57,554 nt of DNA from an uncultured virus (IMG/VR IMGVR_UViG_3300042297_000490) (lineage: Duplodnaviria; Heunggongvirae; Uroviricota; Caudoviricetes). Location of the stretch: the IMG/VR virus record IMGVR_UViG_3300042297_000490; one strand, given 5' to 3'. A program made the translations under genes and the position numbers. The notes under the pieces were generated by a model. The model was not told where the DNA came from, made no database searches, and saw only the letters and a list, made by a program, of their open reading frames with translations. Below are positions 3,933 to 46,983 of this stretch, one piece after another (within the stretch, counting starts at the first letter, position 1; each line of letters begins with the position of its first letter).

Positions 3933-4009
3933 AACTATAGTATGTTTCAAAACTAAATGGTACTTAAAAATAGTTAAACATATTATATTTAAAAACCAAT
4001 ATTTTTGCG

Positions 4010-4016
4010 TATATTA
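4010..4016 (+). promoter_or_regulatory. Putative promoter element TATATTA upstream of scaffold/capsid operon
   Basis: Same TATATTA heptamer after a T-rich run as at 9551, 12591, 22612 and 29761. Confidence 0.55.
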
Positions 4017-4045
4017 ATTATAGTCAGTAATAAAACCAACACATT

Positions 4046-5317
4046 ATGACAGAAGAAGAAAAAGCAGCAGCTGATGTAGCTGCAAAAGCTTCCAATACAA
4101 CGGTAGAGGAAGTTGATTTTGATAACTTGGATGAATTATTAGGAATTGATTCCGCATCGATTGTAACTGGTACAAGTACCAAACCTTCGGTTTTAAATTC
4201 AGGCAATGTTGACACATCGTTCCTTGACAATGACATTGATAGTGCTACACCAGAAGCATTAAAAGATGCGAGTAATGATCAATTAAAAGATGCAGTTGCA
4301 AATGCTGTAGATTCTAATTTATCTGATGATGAAGAAGATGAAGATGAAGCTCCTATTAACAAAGGTGGAAGACCTACGTTAAGCAAAGATGCAATGATTG
4401 AAGCAGCAAAAAGTCTTATCGAAGATGGTACGCTGCAAGCATTTGATGATGATAAATCTTTAGAAGATTATACGTTAGCTGATTTTAAGGAATTGATTCA
4501 AGCAAACATTTCTTCACAGGTTTCCAGTGCTGCACAGAATGCACCAGTTGAACTATTCAAACAATTACCTGAAGAAGTTCAAGCGGCTGTACATTATGCA
4601 TTAAATGGTGGCCAGGATACAAAATCAATTTTTGCACAACTTGCAAAGGTTCAAGAAACTTTTGATTTAGATGTTACAGTTGAAAAAGATCAAGAAGATA
4701 TTATCAGACAATGGTATCAAGCTTCTCAAACTTTTGACACAACAGAAGAAATTGAAGATGAAATTAATCTTTTAAAGGATAGAGGTGATCTTCAAAAATT
4801 TGCTGAAAGGTACAAACCGAAGTTAGATTCAAAACAAGCAGAGGTTGTTGAAAAAAGATTGAAAGATCAACAAGCATCAAAAATTAGAAAAGAGGAAACT
4901 CAAAAAGAGTACACGAATACAATATACAAAACACTGAACACTACAGAGCTTAATGGAATTCCATTAAATTCTAAAATTCAAAACATGTTGTACTACGGTT
5001 TAGTTGATTCAAGTAAATATCAAACTGCAGAAGGGAAACCTACAAATGCTTTAGGATATTTGTTAGAGCAACACCAGTTTGGAAAAAATGCAAATCCATC
5101 ATTAGTTGCAGAAGCACTATGGTTGTTAGCAGATCCAGATGATTACCGAAGCAACATAAAACAAATAGGTAGCAAAGATGCCAATGCAAAAACGGTAAGA
5201 ATGTTAAAGACAGAAGAAGCTTCAAGACAAGGTTCATCTTCAGTAACTGATACCAAAGAAGGAAGTAATCAACGTAGTACGTTGAAGAAAAGTGCAAGAA
5301 ACATTTTTGCAAGATAA
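4046..5317 (+). CDS. Acidic scaffold-like / capsid assembly protein (423 aa)
   Basis: D/E-rich N-terminus, helical C-terminus, and position between portal and major capsid genes. Confidence 0.65.
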   Translation: MTEEEKAAADVAAKASNTTVEEVDFDNLDELLGIDSASIVTGTSTKPSVLNSGNVDTSFLDNDIDSATPEALKDASNDQLKDAVANAVDSNLSDDEEDEDEAPINKGGRPTLSKDAMIEAAKSLIEDGTLQAFDDDKSLEDYTLADFKELIQANISSQVSSAAQNAPVELFKQLPEEVQAAVHYALNGGQDTKSIFAQLAKVQETFDLDVTVEKDQEDIIRQWYQASQTFDTTEEIEDEINLLKDRGDLQKFAERYKPKLDSKQAEVVEKRLKDQQASKIRKEETQKEYTNTIYKTLNTTELNGIPLNSKIQNMLYYGLVDSSKYQTAEGKPTNALGYLLEQHQFGKNANPSLVAEALWLLADPDDYRSNIKQIGSKDANAKTVRMLKTEEASRQGSSSVTDTKEGSNQRSTLKKSARNIFAR

Positions 5318-7326: not shown

Positions 7327-7334
7327 TAAATTTG
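7327..7334 (+). promoter_or_regulatory. Bacteroidetes-type -7 element TAAATTTG
   Basis: Exact TAnnTTTG match just after a terminator and 25 nt before the ATG at 7360. Confidence 0.55.
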
Positions 7335-7359
7335 TCAGTACAAAAATAAACCAACGAAC

Positions 7360-8355
7360 ATGAGTGCAAAAAATTTAGGAGCATTAGGAAAAATCGCTAT
7401 CAAACCATTTAGCGATCCAGATGTAGAGAATATGGGATTAGAAAATTATAACTATGTAGTTTTCCCAAATACGTTTCAAGTAGAACCACTTGCAGCAATT
7501 GAACAAAACGGTAAGATTCGTTATTTGAACGGATTGTATGAGTTTGCACCAGAGATTAAACAAATCACTGATGAAGCTAAAAAGAAAGCTGTTATTAAAG
7601 ACATTAGAGAAACCGTTGCTATGCTTGAAAGAGAAAGAGCGTTTAATCACATTGATGTTGATGACAAAGACTTTTGGAGTAAAGTAGAAATGTTTGGACC
7701 AAACAATTCTGAAATTTGGAGTAAGGTATTATTGAAATTAGGAAACGATGATGTTTATTTGGATCCTGTAAATAACCTTGACCATTTACTTATCATCAAA
7801 GGTATTGAGAACGGTGGCTTTTCATTAGTTGCAACAAGCTGGGAAGATTGTAAAAGAAATAAAAAGAAATGGTATTTAGATAGACAAATCGATACTATGG
7901 CTAACAAAGTTTCTTCAGTTAAATTGAAAAATAAAGCATTGGCTTTATTGAATACTTTGTCTGATGAAGATCCAAGAAAACTATATTACATTGCTAAAAA
8001 CATTGTTAAAGATAGTATTCAGTATAGCAATAGAACATTGCCTGATACAGTTTATTCTAACTTGGATTCATACATACAAGGATTGTCATACGATAGCGAT
8101 AAAAAGCGTTGTGCTTCATTGTTTATTGAACATGCAGAAATGTCACATGATGTACTTAAATTAAAAGCAATTATTAAAGATGCATCTTTCCATAAATACA
8201 TTATCGTTAAAGCGGATGGTGTTTTATATGAAGAAACTGAAAACATAATGCTTGGAAGAAATAGTGCAGATGTTTTAGAATTTTTAAACAATCCATTGAA
8301 TGAAGACATCCTGGACAAATTGATGGCCAGAGTTGAATCATTATGGGCTAAATAA
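7360..8355 (+). CDS. Conserved crAss-like capsid-module protein of unknown function (331 aa)
   Basis: Long ORF in the slot after MCP and before the ring protein; C-terminus IMLGRNSADVLEFLNNPLNEDIL. Confidence 0.6.
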   Translation: MSAKNLGALGKIAIKPFSDPDVENMGLENYNYVVFPNTFQVEPLAAIEQNGKIRYLNGLYEFAPEIKQITDEAKKKAVIKDIRETVAMLERERAFNHIDVDDKDFWSKVEMFGPNNSEIWSKVLLKLGNDDVYLDPVNNLDHLLIIKGIENGGFSLVATSWEDCKRNKKKWYLDRQIDTMANKVSSVKLKNKALALLNTLSDEDPRKLYYIAKNIVKDSIQYSNRTLPDTVYSNLDSYIQGLSYDSDKKRCASLFIEHAEMSHDVLKLKAIIKDASFHKYIIVKADGVLYEETENIMLGRNSADVLEFLNNPLNEDILDKLMARVESLWAK

Positions 8356-9557: not shown

Positions 9558-9597
9558 TTTACTTAATGTATTATTTAATAATTAAAAACTGTAAAAA

Positions 9598-11141: not shown

Positions 11142-11181
11142 AAAAAGGAGGATGGAGGTTTCTCTATTCTCCTTTTTTTTT
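11142..11181 (+). terminator. Rho-independent terminator
   Basis: AAGGAGGATGGAG-gttt-CTCTATTCTCCTT plus T run; immediately followed by TAACTTTG (-7-like) at 11181-11188. Confidence 0.8.
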
Positions 11182-20678: not shown

Positions 20679-22463
20679 ATGTGTATAAAATGTAAAGTTA
20701 AAACTTGTAAAGGATCTTGTCAAAACAACGGTTCTTTAAATAATTCAAACGGAAGCAATAGTCTTGGTGGAAATGGAAACAGCGGTTTTGGCGGTGGTTC
20801 AAATGGAAGCAATGGCTCAAATGGAAATAATGGTTTTGGTGGAAACGGTTTTGGTGGAAACGGAACTAATGGTAATAATGGCGGTGTTGGTGGAAACGGT
20901 GCTAATGGCGGAGCTGGTGGAAACGGTGCTAATGGAGCAGGTGGAGCTAATGGTGGTACTGGAGCCGGTGGTGGTGCAGGAGCTGGTGGAGCAACAGGAT
21001 TAAGAGGACCTCGTGGTTTTCAAGGACCTTCAGGCCCTCCAGGTCCAGCTGGTGTTGGAAGTGGAACTCCAGGTCCAGCTGGCCCTCAAGGAAATCCTGG
21101 TCAACAAGGTCAACCAGGAAATCCCGGACAAAATGGTGCACCAGGTCAAATTGGACCTGCTCCTACAATAACTATTGGTGTTGTCACACAAGGAACAACA
21201 CCTGCAGTAGCAATTACTGGAACCAATCCGTATGCATTAAACTTTACTCTTCCTAAAGGAGATCCGGGAAGTCCTGGTTTAGCTGGTGCAGCTGGCTCAT
21301 TGGGTATTCAAGGAAACATGGGTGCTAATTCAGTTCTCTATAAGAAAGGTGACGGTGCGGTTGCCGGTACGGTTGGTGTTAGTGCTGCAACAACTTATGC
21401 TGGCGTTACACAAATAGCACTTAGTCATACTACAATAAATGGATATGGTGGTACTATAGGTGCTATAAATGGTGGGATACAATGGGTGGTAGGAATTGTA
21501 AAAAATAGTATTATACAATTAGTTGATGCTCAAAATTCTGCAAACTTTGGTATTTATAAAGTTGATGGATTTGGAGTTTCAGGTAATACCCATATATATG
21601 TTGTAACTTTAATACATGGAAATGGAAGCATTCCGGCTGCTGGTATAGAAGTTAGTGTATCATATAATGTTCCAGGACAAGATGCTATACCAAATACAGG
21701 TGGTGGTAATTCAACAGCTCAAGCTGCAGGTGCAGGTTTATTTCCTGTAGGTGGTGTTATTCCATGGGCTGGTGGCATAGGTGTTGCTATTCCAATAGGA
21801 TGGTTGCTATGCGATGGTCAAGTAGTTTCTAAAATTACTTATGGTGATTTATGGGATGTAATTGGTACTGAATACGATTTAAATCCAGTGCCCATAAATA
21901 CATTTTCGGTTCCAAATTTAATTGATAAAATTCCTTATGGTGGAACAGCTGCAAATACTGGAACTGAAGTTGGAGATAATGCTATTGTTGGAACTATTAC
22001 CGGAACTATTACTGGTACTGCTGCTGTTACTTTAACAGGTACAGCATCTGTAAATGTTGGTGTTGCCAATCTTCCAAGTCACGTTCACTCTTTAGCATCA
22101 ACTGATGGATCTACTGCAAATATTATTGCTTCTGGTTCTCACAAGCATAATATTTTTAGAAGTGATGGTGTAGGTGAAGGTAGTTATACATCAATGGATA
22201 AAGATTGGGTAGATAATCCTGATTATGAAGATGTTGATAATCCAGGAGAATTTGATTTATTTATTACTCCAACAACTCACATTCACGAAAAAGAATATTT
22301 TGCTGGTAATACTGCACCTTCTGGTGGCACTGGTTCTCCTACTCCTGCTAGCGGTACTATTTCAGGAACTGGTGCTGGACCAGTTACTGGTACTGCAACA
22401 GGTACATCATCAGGAGATAACAGACAAAAAAGTATTACAATGAGATATATTATAAAATATTAA
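20679..22463 (+). CDS. Gly/Asn-rich, collagen and tail-collar-domain fibre protein (594 aa)
   Basis: GGNG repeats, Gly-X-Y tract, FPVGGVIPWAG..PIGWLLCDG...Y.DL..VIG...FSVPNL collar domain (21741-21920), HxH motifs, terminal MRYIIKY. Confidence 0.8.
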   Translation: MCIKCKVKTCKGSCQNNGSLNNSNGSNSLGGNGNSGFGGGSNGSNGSNGNNGFGGNGFGGNGTNGNNGGVGGNGANGGAGGNGANGAGGANGGTGAGGGAGAGGATGLRGPRGFQGPSGPPGPAGVGSGTPGPAGPQGNPGQQGQPGNPGQNGAPGQIGPAPTITIGVVTQGTTPAVAITGTNPYALNFTLPKGDPGSPGLAGAAGSLGIQGNMGANSVLYKKGDGAVAGTVGVSAATTYAGVTQIALSHTTINGYGGTIGAINGGIQWVVGIVKNSIIQLVDAQNSANFGIYKVDGFGVSGNTHIYVVTLIHGNGSIPAAGIEVSVSYNVPGQDAIPNTGGGNSTAQAAGAGLFPVGGVIPWAGGIGVAIPIGWLLCDGQVVSKITYGDLWDVIGTEYDLNPVPINTFSVPNLIDKIPYGGTAANTGTEVGDNAIVGTITGTITGTAAVTLTGTASVNVGVANLPSHVHSLASTDGSTANIIASGSHKHNIFRSDGVGEGSYTSMDKDWVDNPDYEDVDNPGEFDLFITPTTHIHEKEYFAGNTAPSGGTGSPTPASGTISGTGAGPVTGTATGTSSGDNRQKSITMRYIIKY

Positions 22464-22535
22464 ACGCTGTCACAGAGAGGTTGGTTTATGTGGCTGACTA
22501 GAATTGGTCCTGGGATAATCTGGGGCCAATTTTTA
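22459..22535 (+). ncRNA. Candidate small antisense RNA (boundaries approximate)
   Basis: TATATTA at 22446-22452 upstream, terminator hairpin 22502-22535 downstream; GTTGGTTTAT and CTGACTA are complementary to the leaders at 4021-4040 and 7334-7355. Confidence 0.4.
22502..22535 (+). terminator. Rho-independent terminator 1
   Basis: AATTGGTCCTGG-gataat-CTGGGGCCAATT (12 bp including G-U pairs) plus T run. Confidence 0.75.
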
Positions 22536-22549
22536 CTCTTTGTATTTTG

Positions 22550-22578
22550 AACCCTCTAGGAATAGAGGGTTTCTTTTT
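22550..22578 (+). terminator. Rho-independent terminator 2 (GNRA loop)
   Basis: AACCCTCTA-GGAA-TAGAGGGTT followed by TCTTTTT. Confidence 0.8.
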
Positions 22579-22588
22579 GCATTTTAAT

Positions 22589-22618
22589 TTGTATTTTTGA
22601 CTTAAAATTCTTATATTA
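22589..22618 (+). promoter_or_regulatory. Putative promoter TTG-N20-TATATTA
   Basis: TTTG 22588-22591 and TATATTA 22612-22618, 6 nt before the ATG at 22625. Confidence 0.6.
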
Positions 22619-22624
22619 TAAGTT

Positions 22625-23104
22625 ATGCAAATACCAGATTTAAAGAAAGCAAGGGTAACAGAACAGAAAGGAAAAGTAATTGAGTATGCAGAATTGAAGG
22701 AATTTAAAAAATTACATCCGGAATATGCAAACATTACCATGCATGATTTGATAAACATTGCAAGAACATTTAATAAAAATATGGTAGCAGAAACTATGAA
22801 TAATACTTATGGTGTAGTGCTTCCAGAAAACATAGGTATGATCTGTATTAATAATGCAGGTAAACCAAAAAAGAAATTAGTAGATTACAAGCGTTCTAAA
22901 GAAGTTGGGATAACAGTATATCATAAGAATTGGGAAACAGATGGACACTACATGAGAATTGTTTATTCCACTGGTTCAGTTCGAAATGTAATAAAGAATA
23001 ATAACTTATTTTCATTTACTCCGGTGCTTGAATTTAAAAGAACAGCAAGTAAGTATTTCAGAAAACATTGGCAACGGTGTTTAACATTGAGTTACAATTT
23101 TTAA
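22625..23104 (+). CDS. HU/IHF-like DNA-binding protein (159 aa)
   Basis: Basic; helix-helix then GVVLPENIGMICI beta-arm and FSFTP. An IHF-like gene occupies this slot in crAss-like tail modules. Confidence 0.6.
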   Translation: MQIPDLKKARVTEQKGKVIEYAELKEFKKLHPEYANITMHDLINIARTFNKNMVAETMNNTYGVVLPENIGMICINNAGKPKKKLVDYKRSKEVGITVYHKNWETDGHYMRIVYSTGSVRNVIKNNNLFSFTPVLEFKRTASKYFRKHWQRCLTLSYNF

Positions 23105-23113
23105 ATAAGTATT

Positions 23114-23779
23114 ATGACAACAATACAAGAAGCAACGTCCAGAATAAGAAATGTATTTAAAGCGGTAAATGAAGATGCATTTCTTACAGATCGTTTGATA
23201 TACAATATACTTTTAAAGTATTCTAAAGCATTAATTCGAAGACAGGATAATGAACGTAAACTTATGGTTTATGATTCCTTGTTTGAAACACTTCCTTTTG
23301 TTGAACTAATTGAAGTTGATAAAATTGAAGCAAACTGCGCTGGTATTAAAACCGGTTGTACAATTCGAAGAACAAAAGAAAAATTACCTAAAGTATTTAG
23401 TGGAAGCAATGGTCCTATATTTAGAAACGTAAGCCCAATTGATTTTAGCGATACGTTTCAACAAGTTTCATCAACTGTTTATGTTGCTATGGTTCGTTCA
23501 ACTAATTTTAAATATAACAAGACTAACTATTTTTGGTTTAACAATGGTTATTTGTATTTTCCAGATATTGAATGGGAAGCTGTAATGGTTGAAGCAATGT
23601 GGGAAGATTCTTTAGATGGATATTGTGGTAAAGATGATTGTTCAATTATGCAGGAAAAAGCATTTAATCTTCCAGATTATTTATTTGCAGAAATGGAACA
23701 AATGAGTACACAAGAGTTAATGACGTTGGCAAAAATTCCAATAGATCAATCAGATGATAAACAAAATATAATCAGATAA
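23114..23779 (+). CDS. Tail ring / tubular protein (221 aa)
   Basis: Motifs DAFLTDRLIY, RTKEKLP and YFWFNNGYLYFP; synteny. Confidence 0.65.
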   Translation: MTTIQEATSRIRNVFKAVNEDAFLTDRLIYNILLKYSKALIRRQDNERKLMVYDSLFETLPFVELIEVDKIEANCAGIKTGCTIRRTKEKLPKVFSGSNGPIFRNVSPIDFSDTFQQVSSTVYVAMVRSTNFKYNKTNYFWFNNGYLYFPDIEWEAVMVEAMWEDSLDGYCGKDDCSIMQEKAFNLPDYLFAEMEQMSTQELMTLAKIPIDQSDDKQNIIR

Positions 23780-29745: not shown

Positions 29746-29760
29746 CTTAATTATTTTTTG

Positions 29761-29767
29761 TATATTA
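29761..29767 (+). promoter_or_regulatory. Putative promoter element TATATTA for cargo operon
   Basis: TTTTTTG-TATATTA, 18 nt before the ATG at 29786. Confidence 0.55.
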
Positions 29768-39456: not shown

Positions 39457-42400
39457 ATGGCAAAGGTAGTTACTGGTAAAAGCAGCGGTGTAGATCAAGC
39501 ATCTGCAAAAGATGTTCAATATGTTGATAATAAACCTGTACAAAAACTATCAGGTGAAGATGCAAAAAAACTTGAGCTTATTCAGAAAGGCATTGATTCT
39601 CGTAAAAAAAATCAAGAATTATTTAACCAGGCTTCTAGTCTGGTTGCACAAAAAAATCCTAAACGAAATGAGTCTTTTGGAAAATCTCAAAACTTTTCAT
39701 ACACACAAACAGATTTAAAAAGATTAAAGTCTTTTGGTTCTGATGTATTTGGTAAAGTTGGTTTTAATCCATATGAAGATAATAACACTGCTTTTAATGC
39801 TGCTACAGATGGATGGGATGATATTGGTCGTGCTGGAACAGGGTTTTTAAAACTTGCTGGTATTGGTGCACAAGATACTTTTTTAGAAGGTTCCCTTTCA
39901 GCTAGTGATAATTACGAAGATTTTGGTGACATTATGAAAACCTATTCTTCTACACGTGAAGGTAAATTAGGAAGTGCTAGTAATGCTATGTTATCTGCTG
40001 GATATACTGCTGGTATTATTGGTGGTATTGCTGCAGAAGAAGGATTGTTAGCCATTGGTACATTTTTAAGTGGTGGTCTTGGCGGAACAGCTGCGCTGGC
40101 TAGAACTTCTAAAAATTTAGAGCGTGGTTTTAATGGTATAAGTAAAGCTTGGAGAGCATCATCGCAATCAAATAAATATTTTAGAACTTTTGATCATCTT
40201 ACTGATTTAAATACTGCTCGTGGATTTTGGAGTAAATTAGGTAAAGGTGCATTTCATGCATTAAACCCTGCAGCTAACACAATTGACTTTTTAAGAACTG
40301 CTGATAAATTAAAAGATCTTAATGGTCTTGCACGTTTATCTGTTGGTGTTGGTGCTATTGTTAGAGATGCTCGTAAATTTACAATGTCGCATGGTGAAGC
40401 AAAACTTGAAGCTAACATGGCTCGTCAAGAATTTGTTAACGATGAAATGAAACAATGGCATAAGGCTAATCCGGAACAAAGTCTTTCTAAAGATGCATTA
40501 AATGATATTACTTCTCGTGGAAATAATGTTTATTCATCTACATACAGCGCAAACTTTGGTTTAATTTATGCAACAAATGCTTTAGGTCTTGATAATATGT
40601 TTACAAGCGAAAAAGCTTTAAGCAGAGCTTTTAAATTAAATAAAATTGGAAAGGCTGGATTTAATGTTGTTGCTCGTCAACCAGGATACATTGGTGGAAA
40701 ACTTGTTGCTTTTGGTGGTCGTGGTGGACGTGGTGCTGCTGAATACTGGGGCCAATTTGCATTAAGTGGTGTATCTGAAGGTTCGCAAGAACTTGGTCAA
40801 GACTTAATTTCAAATACAAGTAAGTATTATTATGGTAAGACAGAGCAAGAACGTCAGTTACGCGGTTCTCAATGGGATGTTTTATCAGAAGACTTTGATC
40901 GTTCATACAATTCTTTGTTTCATGGTAAAGTTAAAGTAAATGGAAAATGGGTAATGAACGCTGATAATCAAGGAAAACCTGCAGGATTGGAAACATTTTT
41001 GGGTGGTGCTTTGATAGGTGGTTTTATGGGCCCAGTTAATACAGTACAAAGTTTAATGTTTGATTTTACTCAAGGTGGTGGTAACAAAACATTATACAAT
41101 GCTGCATTTAATCGCGATCAGTATAAAAAAGATAAAGACTCGCAGTTTAAACAAATTCAAGCTAAAGCTGAATTATTAAATGCTTTTATCAAAAATGAAC
41201 ACGCCTTCCTACAGGAAATTAAAAAACCAATCTTTGCACAAAAAGCTATTCAAGATAAAATACTGGAAGCTGTTCAAAATGGTAATACAAAAGACCTTGA
41301 GGATTTAAAACAAGAAGCCTTTGGTCTTCAATTACAAACTATGTTTGATAATGATTTGCAAGATGATTTTGTAAAGCATTTGAAAAGCATGGCTAAAGAT
41401 GGAACAGCTCAAGAATTAAATCAAGCTTTTAATAGAACTGATATTACTGAACAGAATGCTTCAGAATTTAGAGCTAAACTTGTACAGAAAGCAGATCGTG
41501 TAAATGAACATAAGGATCAATATGACAAGATTCAAAATGAAATGATTAATCCAATTACGGTTAGTGATCTTCGTCCATCAGATAAGGACTATAGAGCTAA
41601 TGTAGTTAGATACCATGCATTTGAAAATCTTAAAAAAGAAATGCTTGTTTCGAATGTAAATATTCAATCTATTGCTGATAGAAATAAAGCAATGGATGAA
41701 AAATTAAGCAAGTCATTAAATCTTTCTACAATTGAACGTGATTCATTATTAGACTCTAGTTCATTGAATCAAAATATTGAAGTGTTAGAAACACAAGTAG
41801 AAGGAAGCAAAGGATTAGATTTAAAAGGTACAGCTAAACGTGAGTATGATAAAGCTGTTGTTAAACTTGCAGCATTAAAAAAATATAAAGAATCTATTGA
41901 TAAAGTTGAAAAAGCAGAAGTAGGTGAATTTAATGAAAGTGATCATAGTGATATGTTTGATGCATACGTTGACGTATTAGCGTCATTTGATCAAACAAGT
42001 GGTTTATCAAAAGAAGAACAACGTGCACTTGCTAATCGTACATTTGATTCAGTATATGACCATGTTAATCTAACAAAAGAAGGTAAAGCATTTAAAAAAC
42101 TTGCAAACACTTTATCTGATCCAACGTATGCTGGAAACTTTATTGCAGAACAGGAAAAAGTTCTTAATCATATTCTTGATAACAAGACGCAACACATCAG
42201 TAACTCTTTAGAAGCATTCCAAGTTCGAAAAGAGTCAAGCAAGATGATGCAGATGTTGTCGGAAAAAGGTATTTATTTCAGTTTAACTGAACTGGATGAC
42301 CTTGTGAAAAAAGGAATTATGCCTTCTAAATTTTATGACATCGCGACTCAAAAAGAAGCTACTGACGCACAACTAAAATATGCGCAGGGTGTTGTTGAAG

Positions 42401-45400
42401 GGTTCTATAAAAACTTAACTGGTAAAGTTATTACTGGTGGTAAAGATGGATTGGCTAGAAAAAACTCACGTTCTAAAGCAGACACTCGTAAATCAAAAGA
42501 CATTCTTAAACAGTACGGTCTTACTTTAAATCAGATGATTGATTTGAATGAAAAAGAAGGAGATGTATTTTTAAATAAATTAATTTCTAACAAAGACTTA
42601 TCAAACACTGAACGTGAATTATTAAAAGCAGTTAGCACTACAAAAGCAAAACTTATTTTTACTGATAATGCAGAAGCACCTGTAATGAAAGTAGGAGATG
42701 TTGTTTACATTGATATTCGATATGCTTCTTCTGAATTTAAAGATGCGCAGGTATCGTTTGAAAATTTAGTTATTTCTGCAATAGTTCAAGAAAAAATTGC
42801 TGGAAACATTGAAGACAATGCTACATTAAAAGCTACTGCTACACGTATGATGGAACAAACCAAAGCGTTGTTCTTGAAAACTGTTCCTACAGCGAATGTA
42901 GAAGGACTATCAATGTTCAATAATGTTGAAGAGTTTATAATAGAAGTATTAAACAATAAATCATTACAGGCTACACTATCTCAAGTTAAGGATGAAGTTA
43001 GTTCTTCTCGTCGTTCTCTATGGACAAATATGATGATTATGGTTAAAACATCATTGAGCAAAGAGTCTGCGCTTAATGGAACAATGCTTGATCGTGGTAT
43101 TAATATAGCATCTCAAGCACTGGATATACCAGGAGCTATAGATGTACAGATTGAAGATGAAAAAACTAAACCTAAAAAAGAACGTAAATTAAGTACCTCT
43201 ACTAACGCTAAATCTAAAACTGAAGTAAAGAGATTAAAGGATCTTGAAAAGATGGCCAGAAAGCTGAATAAGCAATTTGGAACCAATGTATCGATTGTTA
43301 CGTCAACAGACGTTGCTAAAAAGATAGTGGATAGTCTTAAAAATCCAATGCATCAAAAATTTGCTGACATTTTATTTGAAGCTGTTCGTGGATACGGTAT
43401 TAACGATAAAGTAATTGAATTAAGAAAATCATTTGACTCACCTGCATTAAGTCAGTTGTTACGTGACGTGTACAATAAGTCTGAATCTATTTCTGAATTG
43501 ATTGAGAACTTAAAAGACTTGACTGCGTATGAAGCTGGTCAACTAGGTCCTGTTATTGATTGGTTGACAAGAAATGCAGATAACTTACAGGATGGTATAG
43601 AAGCTGTTTCAAACATATTCTTTCAGTTAGATGATGCAAATACTGCTGGGTTCTATGATGAAAGCACTAATACTGCATATATTGTTGCTGATAATGTGAA
43701 TGAAACAACTATGTTGCATGAAATGTTCTTGCATCCATTCCTTGTTGATGCTGAAAGAAATAATGTAGATTTATATGGTCAGTTAGTAGCAAATGCAATT
43801 AGTGATGATTCTGTTCGTGAATATGTAATTCAAGTATATGGTACAGAACAAGAACTTGGAACAAGACAATATCACCATGAGTTAGTTGCAAGAGCATTTG
43901 ATATTGCTGCTGGTAGAGTTATAAATCAAAAACTTAATCGTAATTTCTTACAAAAACTTAAAGAGTTCTTTCAAAGAATGTTTAAAAAGTTGATGGGTAA
44001 CCAACAAGTGGCTTTTGTTGATGAACTTGATTTTTTAACAACGGTTGATGAGTTGGCAACGATGATAGTAAAAGACCGAACTCAATTTGAATTTTGGTCC
44101 GATGCTAACATTAAACCTGATGCGGTTGAGATTATTTCTGATTTCATTACACCTACTACGGAAACTGAAGAAACTGAAGAAACTGAAACGGAAGAAACTG
44201 AAACACCTTTTGAAGTAGTAAATGATACTACCGAAGAAAGAACTGATTTGCAGAACCGAATTAGAAATATTGATGCTATGGTTAATAACATAGCAGGTAA
44301 GTTGTCTAGTGGTACTATAACAAAGAGTCGTGAGATTACATCGCTTAACTCCGAACGTACTAAACTGCTTATTGAAAGAAAGCAATTACAACAAGAATTA
44401 GATGCATTACCTGTTAGTGTTTCTCCTACTACAAATGTTGTAACAGATACTCTTGTAGATTCTTCTTTAGAACCAATCGAATATAGTGAAGATGACTTTA
44501 ATTACAATGCAGATGGTTCATTGATATATGATCAAAACGTACCATACCAACAATTTCCATTGACGTTGCAATACGCTATGGCAAATGTATTCGGTAAATC
44601 GCATGGTAATATAACAGAGTCTGAAATGAATGTAATCAATCGATACATCAAAGATGGTCACAAAGACTTTATTGATGCTATTGTAGAATACAATCAAAAT
44701 GCAAAAGCTATAACTCAATCTCAAAAAGATAATGCTGCGCGTGTAGAATCTGAACGTAAAGAACGTAAAGATAAACCTGTAAAAGAAGTATTGTCTGATG
44801 ATGAGTTAATGGATCATTTGTTAACTAAATCTGGATTAACAATCGATACATCAATTCTTACAGATGCTGAACGTAGTGATTTGATTAAAGCTTTTAAAGA
44901 ACGCGCGTTAGATGTTCCTGGAATAATTCATTTCATTTTTGAAAAGAAAATGCTAGTGGAATTGGAAGCACAAGATAAACTTGATGCTGAAGCACAAGCA
45001 CGTTACGAAGCTGAATTTATGGAATTGTTGGACGCTGAAGAAGAGTTCCAACGTAAAAAAGATCGTAAAAAGAAAAGAGCTACAAGTACATCAACAAACT
45101 TGGATGCATTAACTACAGGTACATTAGAGTTCCAGGAAGAAGATGCAAAAGGAAAACTTAAAACAGTATCCGTTAAAATTGGAAAAGCCCTTGGTCGATT
45201 CATTAGTATTTACCATCCAAAGATTTTCAAACAAGAAGCTGAAACATTTGCAAAATCAGTACGTGATTTTAAACGTGAGGTTACTGCTGAAAAGAAACGT
45301 ATTAGCGATAATATAAAATTCAGTGAAAACGAAGTATTGGCTACAAAAGAACTGGTTGATTTGTTTTTCAAACTGGAACGAAAAGGAATGTTGGTTCCTG

Positions 45401-46983
45401 TAATTGCTACAGAAATAAACAAAAAACTGCTTGAGGTTAAGAATCCATATCGTATTCGTATAATCAATAAGAAAGGTTATAAGCCAATTGGTACAATCTA
45501 TTCGATTGAGCATGGTACAAAAGCACAACTGAAAGGAACTGTAGCGTTACCATCAGTCAAAAAAGAAAACAAGATTATTGAAAACAAACTTGTTACTGAA
45601 GAGAAAGATGTATTGTCAACAGAAGAGGAACCAAGAACACCAGAAGAAATTGACTTCTTTTCTACAGAAGAAGGTCAAAAAATGATTGAGGATGAGTTTA
45701 AATATTTGGAAGAATACTATAACTCTAAATTGTTTACAATTGAAACTGGTAGTTACACTGGTGCATTAGAAGACTTATCTGAAACAGAACGTATAATTTA
45801 TGATCGTGCTGCATTTGAAGGTTTATATGAAAAAGAAGACGTTAAAAAACTTGATGCTAATTTAAAAGTTGTTTTACCAATTGGAACATCAGGTTCTGGT
45901 AAAAGCACATGGATTAAATCTTTACCTGCAGATGAGTATGTTGTAATTTCTCCTGACGCTATGCGTGTAGAATTTACAGGCGATATGAATGATAAAAGTA
46001 AAGACACTGAAATTTATGAAGAGGTTAAAAAGAGAACTATTGCTGCAATTAAAAATGGCAAAAAAGTTGTTATTGATACAACTAATCTTCAAAAAGAAAG
46101 AAGACGTGATTTTACAAACGCTATTAAAAAACAATTTCCAGAATTAAGTTTGGAATATAAACTTATGCCTTTAGATGGCGAGCTTGCTAAAAAAAGAATT
46201 AAAGCTCAAATTAGTAAAGGTGAAGATCGTGCTGATGTTTCAGATGAAACGATTGATCGTCATGTGAAGTTGTATAACGAAATGTTAAAAGACATAGCAG
46301 ATGAACCTCTTACAAAGTTTATAGAAGCTCCAAAGAAAGATCCTAAACGTGATTTATTCACAGAAGGACTTGAAGAAAAAACAGAACAGGATAAAGCTGA
46401 ACAGGAATTAAATGTTTTAGTTAATGCTTTCATTAAAGAAAATGTAAAAGAAGCACCACAAAAAGCATATGAAACACATCCTCTGCATCAAGAGTTTGTT
46501 AAAAAAATAAAAAATGGACCTACTGCTATATCGTTAGCTTATGCTGTTGGTGTTTATCAATATGAAATGCAACAAGGTTCTTTATTTTCTGATAAGCAAT
46601 CTAAAGTTGTTGAAAATATAATTAAAGAAAAATTAGCACAAGGATTTTATAAAAACGAGCACTCGAAAGAGGATGTTTTAATGAAAGATGGTACACGTTA
46701 TAAAATAATGTCTTCCACAAAAGATACGGTTTCAGTTTTTAATGTTGAAACTTCGAACCTTGAAAACTTGGATATGTTGAATTTTTTGAGTAATATAAAG
46801 GATGTGGTTGCGGAAGAGGTTCCTGTAAAAAAGGATACTTTTGAAACAAAACCTTCTAGTAAAAAAGGCAAGATTATTAAAGATGCGCTTCAAAATGTTT
46901 TTAGTAACTTTGACACATCAGTAGCGGCTGATCTTTTTGTGGAAGATTCCATTATTGAAACTTTAAAAACTCAATGTAAATAA
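39457..46983 (+). CDS. Giant polyvalent ejection protein (2508 aa): membrane-inserting N-terminus, zincin-like protease, P-loop kinase
   Basis: Hydrophobic Gly/Ala helices near aa 175-215; GFYD...LHEMFLHP...HELVA (43648-43890); IGTSGSGKSTW...ISPDAMR...VIDTTN (45865-46320). Confidence 0.75.
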   Translation: MAKVVTGKSSGVDQASAKDVQYVDNKPVQKLSGEDAKKLELIQKGIDSRKKNQELFNQASSLVAQKNPKRNESFGKSQNFSYTQTDLKRLKSFGSDVFGKVGFNPYEDNNTAFNAATDGWDDIGRAGTGFLKLAGIGAQDTFLEGSLSASDNYEDFGDIMKTYSSTREGKLGSASNAMLSAGYTAGIIGGIAAEEGLLAIGTFLSGGLGGTAALARTSKNLERGFNGISKAWRASSQSNKYFRTFDHLTDLNTARGFWSKLGKGAFHALNPAANTIDFLRTADKLKDLNGLARLSVGVGAIVRDARKFTMSHGEAKLEANMARQEFVNDEMKQWHKANPEQSLSKDALNDITSRGNNVYSSTYSANFGLIYATNALGLDNMFTSEKALSRAFKLNKIGKAGFNVVARQPGYIGGKLVAFGGRGGRGAAEYWGQFALSGVSEGSQELGQDLISNTSKYYYGKTEQERQLRGSQWDVLSEDFDRSYNSLFHGKVKVNGKWVMNADNQGKPAGLETFLGGALIGGFMGPVNTVQSLMFDFTQGGGNKTLYNAAFNRDQYKKDKDSQFKQIQAKAELLNAFIKNEHAFLQEIKKPIFAQKAIQDKILEAVQNGNTKDLEDLKQEAFGLQLQTMFDNDLQDDFVKHLKSMAKDGTAQELNQAFNRTDITEQNASEFRAKLVQKADRVNEHKDQYDKIQNEMINPITVSDLRPSDKDYRANVVRYHAFENLKKEMLVSNVNIQSIADRNKAMDEKLSKSLNLSTIERDSLLDSSSLNQNIEVLETQVEGSKGLDLKGTAKREYDKAVVKLAALKKYKESIDKVEKAEVGEFNESDHSDMFDAYVDVLASFDQTSGLSKEEQRALANRTFDSVYDHVNLTKEGKAFKKLANTLSDPTYAGNFIAEQEKVLNHILDNKTQHISNSLEAFQVRKESSKMMQMLSEKGIYFSLTELDDLVKKGIMPSKFYDIATQKEATDAQLKYAQGVVEGFYKNLTGKVITGGKDGLARKNSRSKADTRKSKDILKQYGLTLNQMIDLNEKEGDVFLNKLISNKDLSNTERELLKAVSTTKAKLIFTDNAEAPVMKVGDVVYIDIRYASSEFKDAQVSFENLVISAIVQEKIAGNIEDNATLKATATRMMEQTKALFLKTVPTANVEGLSMFNNVEEFIIEVLNNKSLQATLSQVKDEVSSSRRSLWTNMMIMVKTSLSKESALNGTMLDRGINIASQALDIPGAIDVQIEDEKTKPKKERKLSTSTNAKSKTEVKRLKDLEKMARKLNKQFGTNVSIVTSTDVAKKIVDSLKNPMHQKFADILFEAVRGYGINDKVIELRKSFDSPALSQLLRDVYNKSESISELIENLKDLTAYEAGQLGPVIDWLTRNADNLQDGIEAVSNIFFQLDDANTAGFYDESTNTAYIVADNVNETTMLHEMFLHPFLVDAERNNVDLYGQLVANAISDDSVREYVIQVYGTEQELGTRQYHHELVARAFDIAAGRVINQKLNRNFLQKLKEFFQRMFKKLMGNQQVAFVDELDFLTTVDELATMIVKDRTQFEFWSDANIKPDAVEIISDFITPTTETEETEETETEETETPFEVVNDTTEERTDLQNRIRNIDAMVNNIAGKLSSGTITKSREITSLNSERTKLLIERKQLQQELDALPVSVSPTTNVVTDTLVDSSLEPIEYSEDDFNYNADGSLIYDQNVPYQQFPLTLQYAMANVFGKSHGNITESEMNVINRYIKDGHKDFIDAIVEYNQNAKAITQSQKDNAARVESERKERKDKPVKEVLSDDELMDHLLTKSGLTIDTSILTDAERSDLIKAFKERALDVPGIIHFIFEKKMLVELEAQDKLDAEAQARYEAEFMELLDAEEEFQRKKDRKKKRATSTSTNLDALTTGTLEFQEEDAKGKLKTVSVKIGKALGRFISIYHPKIFKQEAETFAKSVRDFKREVTAEKKRISDNIKFSENEVLATKELVDLFFKLERKGMLVPVIATEINKKLLEVKNPYRIRIINKKGYKPIGTIYSIEHGTKAQLKGTVALPSVKKENKIIENKLVTEEKDVLSTEEEPRTPEEIDFFSTEEGQKMIEDEFKYLEEYYNSKLFTIETGSYTGALEDLSETERIIYDRAAFEGLYEKEDVKKLDANLKVVLPIGTSGSGKSTWIKSLPADEYVVISPDAMRVEFTGDMNDKSKDTEIYEEVKKRTIAAIKNGKKVVIDTTNLQKERRRDFTNAIKKQFPELSLEYKLMPLDGELAKKRIKAQISKGEDRADVSDETIDRHVKLYNEMLKDIADEPLTKFIEAPKKDPKRDLFTEGLEEKTEQDKAEQELNVLVNAFIKENVKEAPQKAYETHPLHQEFVKKIKNGPTAISLAYAVGVYQYEMQQGSLFSDKQSKVVENIIKEKLAQGFYKNEHSKEDVLMKDGTRYKIMSSTKDTVSVFNVETSNLENLDMLNFLSNIKDVVAEEVPVKKDTFETKPSSKKGKIIKDALQNVFSNFDTSVAADLFVEDSIIETLKTQCK
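44161..44205 (+). repeat. Tandem GAAACT(GAA) repeat encoding an ETEETE acidic linker
   Basis: gaaactgaagaaactgaagaaactgaaacggaagaaactgaaaca. Confidence 0.8.

What the first reader, a model, noticed from the sequence alone, without database searches (positions are those of the whole stretch)
22446..22535. Candidate phage-encoded trans-acting sRNA antisense to the leaders of two capsid-module genes
Seen: the + strand reads GTTGGTTTAT-GTGG-CTGACTA at 22480-22500. The scaffold-like gene leader has TAGTCAG (4021-4027) and AAACCAAC (4033-4040), 5 nt before its ATG. The 7360 gene leader has GTCAG (7334-7338) and ATAAACCAAC (7346-7355), 4 nt before its ATG. Both blocks are reverse complements in the correct antiparallel order (7+8 bp and 5+10 bp). 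The segment lies between a TATATTA promoter-like element (22446-22452) and an intrinsic terminator (22502-22535), with a second terminator insulating it downstream. Inference: a ~75-nt sRNA, or processed 3' UTR, occludes ribosome loading on the two genes flanking MCP and tunes capsid-assembly stoichiometry. An alternative is an orientation-independent protein-binding site.
Basis: partly seen in the sequence, partly recalled or inferred. Interest (0 to 1): 0.85.

Follow-up and report, generated by a model that had tools for sequence, protein, structure and literature searches.

The report
Conserved anti-leader RNA hairpin in phage
Right after its tail-fibre gene this lake-water phage, like dozens of its relatives, keeps a small RNA hairpin whose loop mirrors the short signal in front of the start codons of genes next to the capsid gene, so it probably tunes their translation, though nobody has yet seen the RNA act.

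Summary
The + strand at 22480-22500 is the reverse complement of motifs in the leaders of the genes starting at 4046 and 7360. The bipartite pattern gave 3 matches against 0.04 expected. A fourth copy leads a small gene outside the window.

The segment is a conserved structured RNA element. It starts just after the tail-fibre stop codon and forms a 6-7 bp stem with compensatory changes. Its loop always carries GUUGGU, and an intrinsic terminator follows. A covariance model found it in 23 of 27 sufficiently long related contigs. A strict pattern scan found it in 40 of 80 IMG/VR loci.

Its partner, AACCAAC just upstream of an ATG, occurs in 74 of 80 capsid-gene loci. Predicted binding ranks the three motif-bearing start regions 1, 2 and 3 of 74.

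An own promoter is not supported, so a 3'UTR origin is favoured. The GTCAG/CTGAC block is clade-specific. Lineage-specific co-variation is weak. No usable RNA evidence exists, so function is inferred. This scan has flagged the same hairpin family on other DNA. I found nothing in print.

The parts
22461..22463 (+). TAA stop codon of the tail-fibre gene (20679-22463; collagen repeats plus tail-collar domain)
   Evidence: ORF list; PHROG and Pfam tail-collar hits. In 39 of 40 related elements, the stop of an ORF open for at least 40 codons lies within 25 nt upstream.
22465..22501 (+). Anti-leader hairpin element, taken as the extent of the covariance-model match
   Evidence: Model R1 scores 44.3 bits, E 2.3e-11, the only strong hit in the window. 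It is conserved in 23 of 27 long related contigs.
22469..22474 (+). 5' half of the stem (GUCACA)
   Evidence: RNAalifold consensus. 97.2% of 218 cells are paired and 3 of 7 pairs changed on both sides.
22475..22488 (+). Loop GAGAGGUUGGUUUA, carrying the antisense of AAACCAAC (GUUGGUUU at 22480-22487)
   Evidence: GTTGGT is present in every model match printed and in all 32 rows of alignment A3. No hairpin with a variant loop was found (0 of 21 pattern hits).
22489..22494 (+). 3' half of the stem (UGUGGC)
22467..22472 (+). CTGTCA, complementary to TGACAG at 4047-4052 (start-codon region of leader 1); overlaps the 5' stem half
   Evidence: Read. The cofold duplex pairs these bases.
22494..22500 (+). 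CTGACTA linker block, complementary to TAGTCAG in leader 1 and GTCAG in leader 2; clade-specific
   Evidence: Absent from diverged members L284-L289.
22500..22538 (+). Intrinsic terminator 1 (stem 22500-22533, then a T run)
   Evidence: Sequence varies but the hairpin is kept in relatives. 37 of 40 related elements are followed by a hairpin plus T run.
22549..22579 (+). Second terminator-like hairpin; not conserved in the family
   Evidence: Present in the window, G001 and G004; absent in G002, G003 and G005.
22592..22599 (+). TATTTTTG, a -7-box-like promoter element of the next gene (ATG 22625)
   Evidence: 29 of 33 distinct elements have a TAnnTTTG box within 150 nt downstream. The consensus and its -12 to -5 position come from PMC9723704.
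4021..4052 (+). Leader 1 target region of the acidic 423-aa scaffold-like gene: TAGTCAG 4021-4027, AAACCAAC 4033-4040 (positions -13 to -6), ATG 4046, TGACAG 4047-4052
   Evidence: Best predicted partner, cofold ddG -20.0 kcal/mol, rank 1 of 74. Its reverse complement is the second-best model hit in the window (14.1 bits).
4000..4007 (+). TATTTTTG -7-box-like element upstream of leader 1; the predicted start near 4012 would put all three blocks in the mRNA
   Evidence: inference from the consensus position
7327..7362 (+). Leader 2 of the 331-aa gene: TAAATTTG box 7327-7334, GTCAG 7334-7338, ATAAACCAAC 7346-7355, ATG 7360
   Evidence: Cofold ddG -15.9 kcal/mol, rank 2 of 74.

Best explanation
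The segment is the 3' untranslated end of the tail-fibre operon transcript. It starts a few bases after the stop codon and folds into a 6-7 bp stem. The stem's 11-14 nt loop displays GUUGGUUU, and an intrinsic terminator follows directly.

The loop is the exact antisense of AAACCAAC. In this phage family that A/C-rich tag sits about 3-10 nt upstream of the start codon of a few operon-first genes. In this genome these are the scaffold-like gene upstream of the capsid gene, the 331-aa gene downstream of it, and one small gene on the other arm.

The phage's start regions lack Shine-Dalgarno sequences and are enriched in A at -3, -6, -12 and -13. That is the pattern described for Flavobacterium johnsoniae, so the host is probably a Bacteroidota bacterium.

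Proposed mechanism (inferred, not shown): the hairpin pairs loop-first with the unstructured tag, acting either as part of the long mRNA or as a ~70-75 nt fragment released from it. In this clade the pairing extends to the start codon of leader 1 and covers positions about -13 to -5. It thereby lowers 30S loading on those messages once the late tail-fibre operon has been transcribed.

Shown here: the sequences, their conservation, the stem covariation, the strand asymmetry and the target ranking. Inferred: host type, transcript ends, release of a small RNA and the direction of the effect.
For: - Sequence and chance: and (3 matches against 0.04 expected).
- Conservation at the same place while flanks diverge. 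The alignment of six genomes keeps TGTCACAGA(G)AGGTTGGTTT(A)ATGTGGCTGAC, although the upstream fibre C-terminus differs in two of them and the terminator sequence changes.
- Distant relatives with 68-69% capsid identity keep the element.
- Model R1 finds one strong hit in 23 of 27 long contigs.
- Of 80 IMG/VR pattern loci, 40 are full elements. 39 of these follow a stop codon and 37 precede a terminator.
- RNA structure on this strand: 97.2% of 218 stem cells are paired, 3 of 7 pairs changed on both sides, and 0 of 500 shuffles reach the covariation score. Examples include GUCGUGG/CUACGGC and GUUGCAG/CUGUAAC.
- Strand asymmetry: the + strand folds at -30.1 kcal/mol (z -3.67) and the - strand at -9.7 (z 0.13).
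- Partner motif: AACCAAC within 14 nt upstream of an ATG that opens at least 50 codons occurs in 74 of 80 capsid loci. The reversed motif gives 10 of 80 and the opposite strand 0 of 80.
- Target ranking: cofold ddG is -20.0, -15.9 and -13.6 for the three tagged start regions, ranks 1-3 of 74, with a median of -4.25. With duplexfold they rank 1, 2 and 4, and 0 of 100 shuffled seeds give three targets as good.
- The leaders are unstructured.
- Host-type start regions: 2 of 74 genes have an SD-like core. A occurs at -3, -6, -12 and -13 in 47, 44, 55 and 43 of 74, matching PMC6847099 section 15.
- No own promoter.
Against: - No RNA evidence of a discrete transcript. The only RNA-library run is kept as contigs. 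Its 208-nt contig spans 22408-22613, beyond both ends of the proposed sRNA, and DNA carry-over cannot be excluded.
- The loop and the tag are nearly invariant, so true loop-target covariation is absent. A scan for hairpins with variant loops found 0 real elements among 21 hits.
- The own-versus-other-genome test is weak for contiguous pairing (9.75 against 9.45 nt, p 0.04). Its energy signal (p below 0.001) is driven by one clade. Several distant genomes pair no better with their own leaders than with others'.
- One genome (G009) keeps AACCAAC leaders but has no detectable element.
- Shuffled seeds reach single-target energies as low as -30.4 kcal/mol.
- Stem support partly rests on an alignment fitted to the model, and most changes are one-sided wobble changes.
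Confidence: 0.55

Rival explanations
1. Cis-acting 3'-end element. The hairpin plus terminator only stabilises or terminates the fibre-operon mRNA, or pairs with the 5' leader of the same long transcript. The loop's complementarity to the leaders is a relic of an ancient inverted duplication of leader 1, with no trans regulation.
For: - The element resembles the reverse complement of the whole of leader 1. Model R1's second-best hit in the window is 4020-4054 on the minus strand (14.1 bits). In G010 and G043 the weaker model hits are the reverse complements of their own leaders.
- The element always directly precedes a terminator.
- No transcript data show a separate small RNA.
Against: - A mere stabiliser hairpin need not keep its loop sequence. 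Here the loop core is invariant while the neighbouring terminator stems and linkers change freely.
- A terminator-like site at 11142-11177 lies between leader 2 and the element, so one transcript joining both ends is uncertain.
- Distant clades keep only the loop complementarity, not the flanking similarity. That pattern is what selection on pairing would leave.
Confidence: 0.15
2. Protein-binding RNA hairpin. The conserved loop is the recognition site of a phage or host RNA-binding protein, for example one acting in processing, termination or packaging of the message. Its complementarity to the leader tag is incidental, or the protein and the tag compete for the loop.
For: - A conserved stem with an invariant 11-14 nt loop is also the signature of protein-recognised hairpins.
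- Loop and target do not covary.
Against: - It is very unlikely that an 8-11 nt invariant loop is by accident the exact antisense of the family's most conserved leader motif.
- No candidate RNA-binding protein was identified. The neighbouring genes have no informative family hits.
Confidence: 0.12
3. Independent small-RNA gene with its own promoter at about 22446. It would give a primary transcript of about 75 nt.
For: TATATTA lies at 22446-22452. TATATTA follows the TTTG of the promoter-like boxes upstream of several operon-first genes of this phage.
Against: - The site lies in the last codons of the fibre gene.
- It lacks the TAnnTTTG box seen at the other sites.
- Relatives with other fibre C-termini lose it but keep the element.
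- Of 33 distinct elements, 2 have TATATTA and 1 has TAnnTTTG within 80 nt upstream.
Confidence: 0.08
4. DNA-level site. An orientation-independent binding site for a DNA-binding protein, or a recombination or inversion site, shared by the leaders and the inverted copy.
For: The motif occurs in both orientations in intergenic DNA. The half-sites GTCA...TGAC look palindromic.
Against: - Spacing between the blocks varies from 4 to 9 nt, which is unusual for a protein-bound DNA site.
- The tag keeps its distance to the ATG rather than to the promoter.
- The stem keeps G.U pairs that would be A.C mismatches on the other strand. 17 of 31 rows have U.G at one pair and 13 of 32 have G.U at another. 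The minus strand does not fold.
- A DNA-run contig spans 18000-24091 without any inversion joint.
Confidence: 0.04
5. Decoy or mimic. The AAACCAAC tag is read by a complementary stretch of a host RNA such as rRNA, and the hairpin loop mimics that stretch and competes for the tag.
For: The tag behaves like a dedicated translation signal in an SD-less setting. The loop is its exact antisense.
Against: No host is known and no host rRNA was examined here. Nothing in the calls points to such a host sequence. Mechanistically this is a special case of the main explanation, since the loop still pairs with the tag.
Confidence: 0.04

Closest known systems
3'UTR-derived base-pairing small RNAs of bacteria. 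Review PMC9438474 and the flagellar UTR-derived sRNAs of PMC10578931 were seen only as search listing and abstract.
   Same: The element lies between a stop codon and the mRNA's own intrinsic terminator. It has a conserved short seed complementary to translation-initiation regions. It comes from a structural-assembly operon and would feed back on genes of the same assembly programme.
   Different: No discrete RNA or processing site is shown here. The seed sits in a hairpin loop rather than a single-stranded stretch. It is phage-encoded and aimed at the phage's own genes. The host type probably lacks both Hfq and Shine-Dalgarno use. No sequence relation to any Rfam family.
c4 antisense RNA of phages P1 and P7 (passages and table of review PMC12197685)
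   Same: A phage-encoded RNA that acts in trans by sequence-specific pairing with complementary regions of one of the phage's own messages to block protein synthesis.
   Different: c4 controls an antirepressor in temperate-phage immunity. Here the predicted targets are capsid-module and other operon-first genes of a large phage with no lysogeny genes noticed. There is no homology. c4's processing route is recalled, not checked here.
GibS of Bacteroides thetaiotaomicron (PMC7366714, passages)
   Same: A base-pairing RNA in a Bacteroidota setting that binds the region around start codons and represses, without a known chaperone.
   Different: GibS is an intergenic gene with its own start site and a long unstructured 5' seed. 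This element has no conserved promoter, a loop seed of 8-11 nt, and is viral.
sar RNA of phage P22 (review PMC12197685, passages)
   Same: A small phage antisense RNA that blocks translation initiation of a phage gene by pairing at its start region.
   Different: As recalled, sar is transcribed from the opposite strand of its target, giving full complementarity. Here the antisense copy lies 15-18 kb from its targets and shares only short blocks with them.

Membership tests
3'UTR-derived base-pairing sRNA | Lies downstream of a stop codon and shares the parent mRNA's intrinsic terminator | tested here: met
   The stop is at 22461-22463, the element at 22465-22501 and the terminator at 22500-22533. 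In relatives, 39 of 40 elements follow a stop and 37 of 40 precede a terminator.
3'UTR-derived base-pairing sRNA | A discrete small RNA accumulates, by processing or from an internal promoter | not testable with these tools
   Only one RNA-library run holds related sequence, and only as contigs. Its 208-nt contig covers 22408-22613. Contigs show neither ends nor strand.
3'UTR-derived base-pairing sRNA | Conserved seed complementary to target mRNAs | tested here: met
   The GUUGGU loop core is present in all printed members. The tag occurs in 74 of 80 capsid loci. The tagged start regions rank 1-3 of 74.
3'UTR-derived base-pairing sRNA | Regulates target expression | not testable with these tools
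   No cultured phage or host is available. The closest cultured capsid protein is 27.8% identical.
Independent trans-encoded sRNA gene (GibS type) | Own promoter and primary 5' end | tested here: not met
   Of 33 distinct elements, 1 has a TAnnTTTG box and 2 have TATATTA within 80 nt upstream. The upstream sequence is variable coding DNA.
Any curated RNA family (Rfam 15) | Match at the family's gathering score | tested here: not met
   No matches in the window at gathering thresholds. The only sub-threshold match is PyrR at 25.7 bits against 54 needed, E 0.1.
Intrinsic (rho-independent) terminator | G+C-rich hairpin followed by a T run on the transcribed strand | tested here: met
   22500-22533 has 15 pairs, then TTTT(T)A. 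22549-22572 has 10 pairs, then CTTTTT. The hairpin is kept with different sequences in relatives.
Structured RNA hairpin under selection | Base pairs maintained through compensatory change | tested here: met
   3 of 7 pairs changed on both sides (4 cells) and 97.2% of cells are paired. 0 of 500 shuffles reach the covariation score, and slid controls pair 22-64%. Caveat: the alignment was fitted to the model. On the MAFFT alignment of closer members all changes are one-sided.
   tblastn of the capsid protein finds 10 phage records, all below 60% identity. One human-gut 'csAssE' phage matches at 26% over 29% of the protein. PHROG hits are generic portal, terminase and capsid families. No tree was built.

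The most novel reading that the evidence does not exclude
A whole family of large, uncultured freshwater phages of probable Bacteroidota hosts runs a built-in RNA circuit. A phage-specific, Shine-Dalgarno-independent 'start tag' (AAACCAAC) marks a small set of high-demand messages. The last thing the late tail-fibre operon transcribes is a hairpin that is the dedicated antagonist of that tag. Completion of tail-gene transcription would then dial down scaffold and head-accessory synthesis. This would be the first riboregulator known to set virion-protein stoichiometry in a lytic-type phage, and the first known in a phage of this host group.
Probability: 0.35. Interest if true: 0.75.

Novelty: new variant of a known kind. 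Interest (0 to 1): 0.6.

Why it matters
If the hairpin does pair with the tagged leaders, phages of Shine-Dalgarno-blind hosts control virion-protein synthesis after transcription, using an RNA encoded at the end of a late operon. That gives a simple, testable handle (a hairpin of about 37 nt and an 8-nt tag) on two open questions. One is how strong translation start sites are defined in Bacteroidota-type systems. The other is how large uncultured phages balance head and tail production.

The element is also a compact marker for this phage family. It is absent from Rfam. A 2025 review of phage-derived sRNAs has no occurrence of 'capsid' or 'Bacteroid' (term search of the main text only). My searches for crAss-like antisense or small RNAs and for the motif returned nothing relevant.

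Tried and rejected
- **Phage-collection blastn** of 21800-23200: no match.
- **tRNA scan:** none. **Rfam:** none at gathering. The only sub-threshold match is PyrR, rejected as noise.
- **Hairpins with variant loops.** I scanned IMG/VR for hairpins whose loop would match AACCAAT or AACCAAA leaders. It gave 21 hits, and 0 had the stop-plus-terminator context. No loop-tag covariation could therefore be shown.
- **Alternative stem.** GUUGGUU/GGCUGAC appears in the window's minimum-energy fold. I rejected it as the conserved structure because diverged members lack the CTRAC segment and RNAalifold picks the other stem.
- **Minus-strand reading** (leader or promoter copy driving an antisense transcript). 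Rejected: no promoter box upstream on that strand, no ORF, no fold.
- **Function of the 331-aa target protein.** No PHROG or Pfam hit. The AlphaFold model is poor (mean pLDDT 62.5) and Foldseek against PDB gave no match at E 0.001 or better. The function stays unknown.
- **RNA evidence.** One metatranscriptome run holds 5% of the sampled words. Its contigs cover the element, but contigs cannot show ends, strand or level. This counts neither for nor against.
- **Co-loss.** Two related genomes (G007, G008) lack the element and have AAACCAAA leaders, but a third (G009) lacks it and keeps AACCAAC. This is at most one event and is not used as support.
Full report
**1. The observation**

- On the + strand, GTTGGTTTAT lies at 22480-22489, GTGG at 22490-22493 and CTGACTA at 22494-22500.
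- Leader 1 has TAGTCAG at 4021-4027 and AAACCAAC at 4033-4040, five bases before the ATG at 4046.
- Leader 2 has GTCAG at 7334-7338 and ATAAACCAAC at 7346-7355, four bases before the ATG at 7360.

The bipartite pattern GTCAG-N3-10-AACCAAC occurs 3 times in the window. The mean in 100 dinucleotide shuffles is 0.04, and none reached 3. The pattern was written after the fact. The 8-mer alone is unremarkable: 7 matches against 3.69 expected, with 9 of 100 shuffles reaching 7.

The two terminator-like hairpins at 22500-22533 and 22549-22572 are found by the scan.

- CTGTCA at 22467-22472 is the complement of TGACAG at 4047-4052, which is the UG of the start codon plus ACAG. Leader 1 is therefore matched by 7+8+6 = 21 nt.
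- The whole 91,179-base record holds a fourth copy, GTCAGAAGTAAACCAAC. It lies 8 nt upstream of the ATG of a 117-aa gene on the oppositely oriented arm.

**2. Context**

All long ORFs in the window are on the + strand. From left to right they are:
- terminase and portal;
- an acidic 423-aa scaffold-like protein, served by leader 1;
- the major capsid protein and an 88-aa ORF;
- a 331-aa protein of unknown function, served by leader 2;
- tail and fibre genes, then very large virion proteins.

The segment lies between the TAA (22461-22463) of a collagen-repeat, tail-collar fibre gene and the next gene at 22625.

The DNA is found in lake-water metagenomes. There is no close cultured relative. The best capsid match in the phage collection is 27.8% identical. 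I did not establish that the phage is crAss-like.

Only 2 of 74 genes have an SD-like core at -20 to -5. A occupies -3, -6, -12 and -13 in 47, 44, 55 and 43 of 74 genes. That is the start-region pattern described for Flavobacterium johnsoniae (PMC6847099, abstract and section 15 read).

TAnnTTTG boxes lie upstream of several operon-first genes. In Flavobacterium psychrophilum this is the sigma-A -7 box, at -12 to -5 (PMC9723704, passages). A Bacteroidota host is therefore likely, but this is an inference.

**3. The leader motif is a family-wide start tag**

The capsid protein has at least 600 relatives in IMG/VR, and 80 loci were kept, at 68-100% identity.

In 74 of these 80 loci, AACCAAC lies within 14 nt upstream of an ATG that opens at least 50 codons on the gene strand. 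The reversed motif gives 10 of 80 and the opposite strand 0 of 80. With AACCAAH, all 80 loci qualify. The tagged genes are those flanking the capsid gene, and the tag is often doubled.

In five complete relatives, AAACCAAC-N1-10-ATG occurs 2 to 11 times, against 0 to 4 for the backwards control. The tag therefore marks a small set of genes.

In this genome the tagged leaders are essentially unstructured. They fold at -4.5, -2.9 and -6.1 kcal/mol, with z-scores near 0. The tag covers about -13 to -5, the A-rich zone that matters for initiation in F. johnsoniae.

**4. The inverted copy is a conserved, structured RNA element**

- A 97%-identical relative keeps all four copies.
- Four further long genomes with 86-91% capsid identity keep the inverted copy at the same relative place.
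- In the six-genome alignment, the block TGTCACAGA(G)AGGTTGGTTT(A)ATGTGGCTGAC is kept. Meanwhile the fibre C-terminus upstream is unrelated in two genomes and the terminator changes sequence but stays a hairpin.
- Two genomes at 68-69% capsid identity also have the element. Three others lack it.
- An IMG/VR scan with GTTGGTT-N1-5-TGTGRCTRAC returned at least 119 stretches. Of the 80 loci delivered, 40 are full elements. 39 of these lie within 25 nt of the stop of an ORF open for at least 40 codons, and 37 are followed by a hairpin plus T run. The other 40 are chance hits in unrelated DNA, of which 3 have a terminator-like fold.

RNAalifold places a stem GUCRYR(G)/(C)UGUGRC around a loop that carries GUUGGUUU. 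In the window the stem halves are 22469-22474 and 22489-22494, and the loop is 22475-22488.

On a MAFFT alignment of 24 distinct close members, 96.4% of cells pair, but all changes are one-sided wobble changes.

A covariance model built from that alignment found one strong hit in 23 of 27 related contigs long enough to hold the site. The diverged hits supply true compensation:
- GUCGUGG/CUACGGC;
- GUUGCAG/CUGUAAC;
- the intermediate GUUACAG/CUGUGAC.

On the model-fitted alignment of 39 matches (32 distinct):
- 97.2% of 218 cells pair;
- 3 of 7 pairs changed on both sides;
- 0 of 500 shuffles reach the covariation score;
- slid controls pair only 22-64%.

Such an alignment leans towards the model, so I rate the stem as well supported rather than proven.

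The many U.G and G.U pairs exist only on the + strand. The + strand folds at -30.1 kcal/mol (z -3.67) and the - strand at -9.7 (z 0.13). The functional molecule is therefore + strand RNA, not the minus strand and not duplex DNA.

**5. Where the RNA comes from**

The TATATTA at 22446-22452 encodes the fibre protein's last residues. It disappears in relatives with another fibre C-terminus that still keep the element.

Of 33 distinct elements:
- 1 has a TAnnTTTG box within 80 nt upstream;
- 2 have TATATTA within 80 nt upstream;
- 29 have a TAnnTTTG box within 150 nt downstream, which is the next gene's promoter.

The element is therefore made as the 3' end of the fibre-operon transcript. Whether a fragment of about 70-75 nt is then released is unknown.

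**6. What it would pair with**

Cofolding the RNA 22464-38 with each of 74 start regions (-30 to +20), and subtracting the self-folds, gives the following:

| Start region | ddG (kcal/mol) | Rank of 74 |
|---|---|---|
| Leader 1 | -20.0 | 1 |
| Leader 2 | -15.9 | 2 |
| Fourth leader | -13.6 | 3 |
| Next best | -10.0 | 4 |
| Median | -4.25 | - |

With plain duplex energies the three leaders rank 1, 2 and 4. No shuffled seed out of 100 gives three targets as good as the real third-best. A single shuffled seed did, however, reach -30.4 kcal/mol on one target.

The model's second-best hit in the window is the reverse complement of leader 1 (14.1 bits, E 0.068), and the fifth is that of leader 2. 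The element therefore looks like an old inverted copy of leader 1.

In the distant clade only the loop remains complementary. There UUUGUUGGUUU pairs with AAACCAACAAA, typically over 9-11 nt.

**7. What is weak**

- **Loop-tag covariation is lacking.** Both sequences are nearly invariant.
- **The own-versus-other test is weak.** Across 28 distinct genome combinations, the mean contiguous run is 9.75 nt with a genome's own leaders and 9.45 nt with others' (p 0.04). The energy difference (p below 0.001) comes mainly from one clade that shares GTCAG leaders with CTGAC elements. Several distant genomes pair no better with their own leaders.
- **One suggestive co-change exists.** The window has ATAAACCAAC in both leader 2 and the element. 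G001 has ATTAAACCAAC in both. G002 follows the same trend, while G031 and G032 do not.
- **No variant loops were found.** A scan found 0 real elements among 21 hits.
- **The CTGAC block is not universal**. In leader 2 the G of GTCAG is the last base of a TAAATTTG box. By the -12 to -5 rule, GTCAG then falls at -5 to -1, outside the primary transcript (inference).
- **RNA evidence is unusable.** In the one RNA-library run, a 208-nt contig (depth 19.8, 6 differences) covers 22408-22613. Neighbouring contigs are about 88-90% identical. Contigs show no ends or strand, and DNA may be present in the library.

**8. Mechanism and rivals**

Best reading (confidence 0.55): a 3'UTR-borne anti-leader hairpin pairs loop-first with the unstructured start tag of a few phage messages and lowers ribosome loading. 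I infer repression rather than activation because the leaders have no structure to open.

Rivals:
- a purely cis 3'-end element whose complementarity is a relic (0.15);
- a protein-bound hairpin (0.12);
- an sRNA gene with its own promoter (0.08);
- a DNA site (0.04);
- a mimic of a host RNA (0.04).

**9. Comparison with what is known**

The element works most like 3'UTR-derived base-pairing sRNAs and like the P1/P7 c4 RNA. In host setting it resembles GibS. It is not a homologue of any Rfam family.

I found no printed description:
- a search for the motif with 'phage' gave only unrelated papers among the 15 listed;
- 'crAss-like', 'small RNA' and 'antisense' gave 3 irrelevant papers;
- two further searches found reviews and surveys of phage ncRNAs without this element.

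Supplements were not read.

This scan has already noted the same hairpin family on other genomes. Those notes agree with my reading but are not independent evidence.

**10. Verdict**

The feature is real and conserved, and it is very probably an RNA element. Its regulatory role is plausible and directly testable but unproven. It is a new variant of a known kind. Interest: 0.6.

Noticed in passing
G000 outside the window (L001:1499-1528; window-equivalent about 75330-75357, minus strand): The fourth tagged leader has an in-frame ATG inside the ATGTCAG box, 27 nt upstream of the ATG that follows the tag. The gene's true start is therefore ambiguous (126 or 117 aa). The gene sits next to an exonuclease-like gene and has no family hit.
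   Followed up: partly
window 22501-22583: In a lake DNA run that is not the likely source, a contig replaces these 83 bases (both terminators) with 36 other letters that form the single terminator type seen in relatives. The breakpoint falls exactly at the end of the hairpin element (table 5c).
   Followed up: no
L024, L056, L064 about 4700-4750; also G019, G026 and G033 loci: In some relatives the stretch between the capsid gene and the tagged downstream gene ends in a tRNA T-arm-like sequence (GGTTCGATCC...). This suggests a tRNA gene placed directly upstream of leader 2. No tRNA is found in the window itself.
   Followed up: no
window 11142-11177: A 16-pair terminator-like hairpin straddles the start codon of the gene at 11152. 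It contains AAGGAGG, one of only two SD-like cores in 74 start regions.
   Followed up: no
window 4000-4016, 9560-9575, 22592-22615, 29750-29765; also outside the window: A recurrent promoter-like box, TTTG followed after 0-2 nt by TATATTA and overlapping a TAnnTTTG -7 box, lies upstream of operon-first genes.
   Followed up: partly
G002, G003, G005 (L106, L095, L094): These relatives have an extra tagged leader, GTCAGAACAAACCAAC, about 8 kb upstream of leader 1. The window genome lacks it at the equivalent gene.
   Followed up: no
window 20679-22463 and relatives (alignment A2): The fibre gene upstream of the element carries collagen repeats and a tail-collar domain. Its C-terminal part is swapped between otherwise close genomes, while the non-coding element just behind it is kept.
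   Followed up: partly
window 39457-46983: The 2508-aa virion-module protein has a polynucleotide kinase / ATPase-like region at residues about 2137-2357.
   Followed up: no
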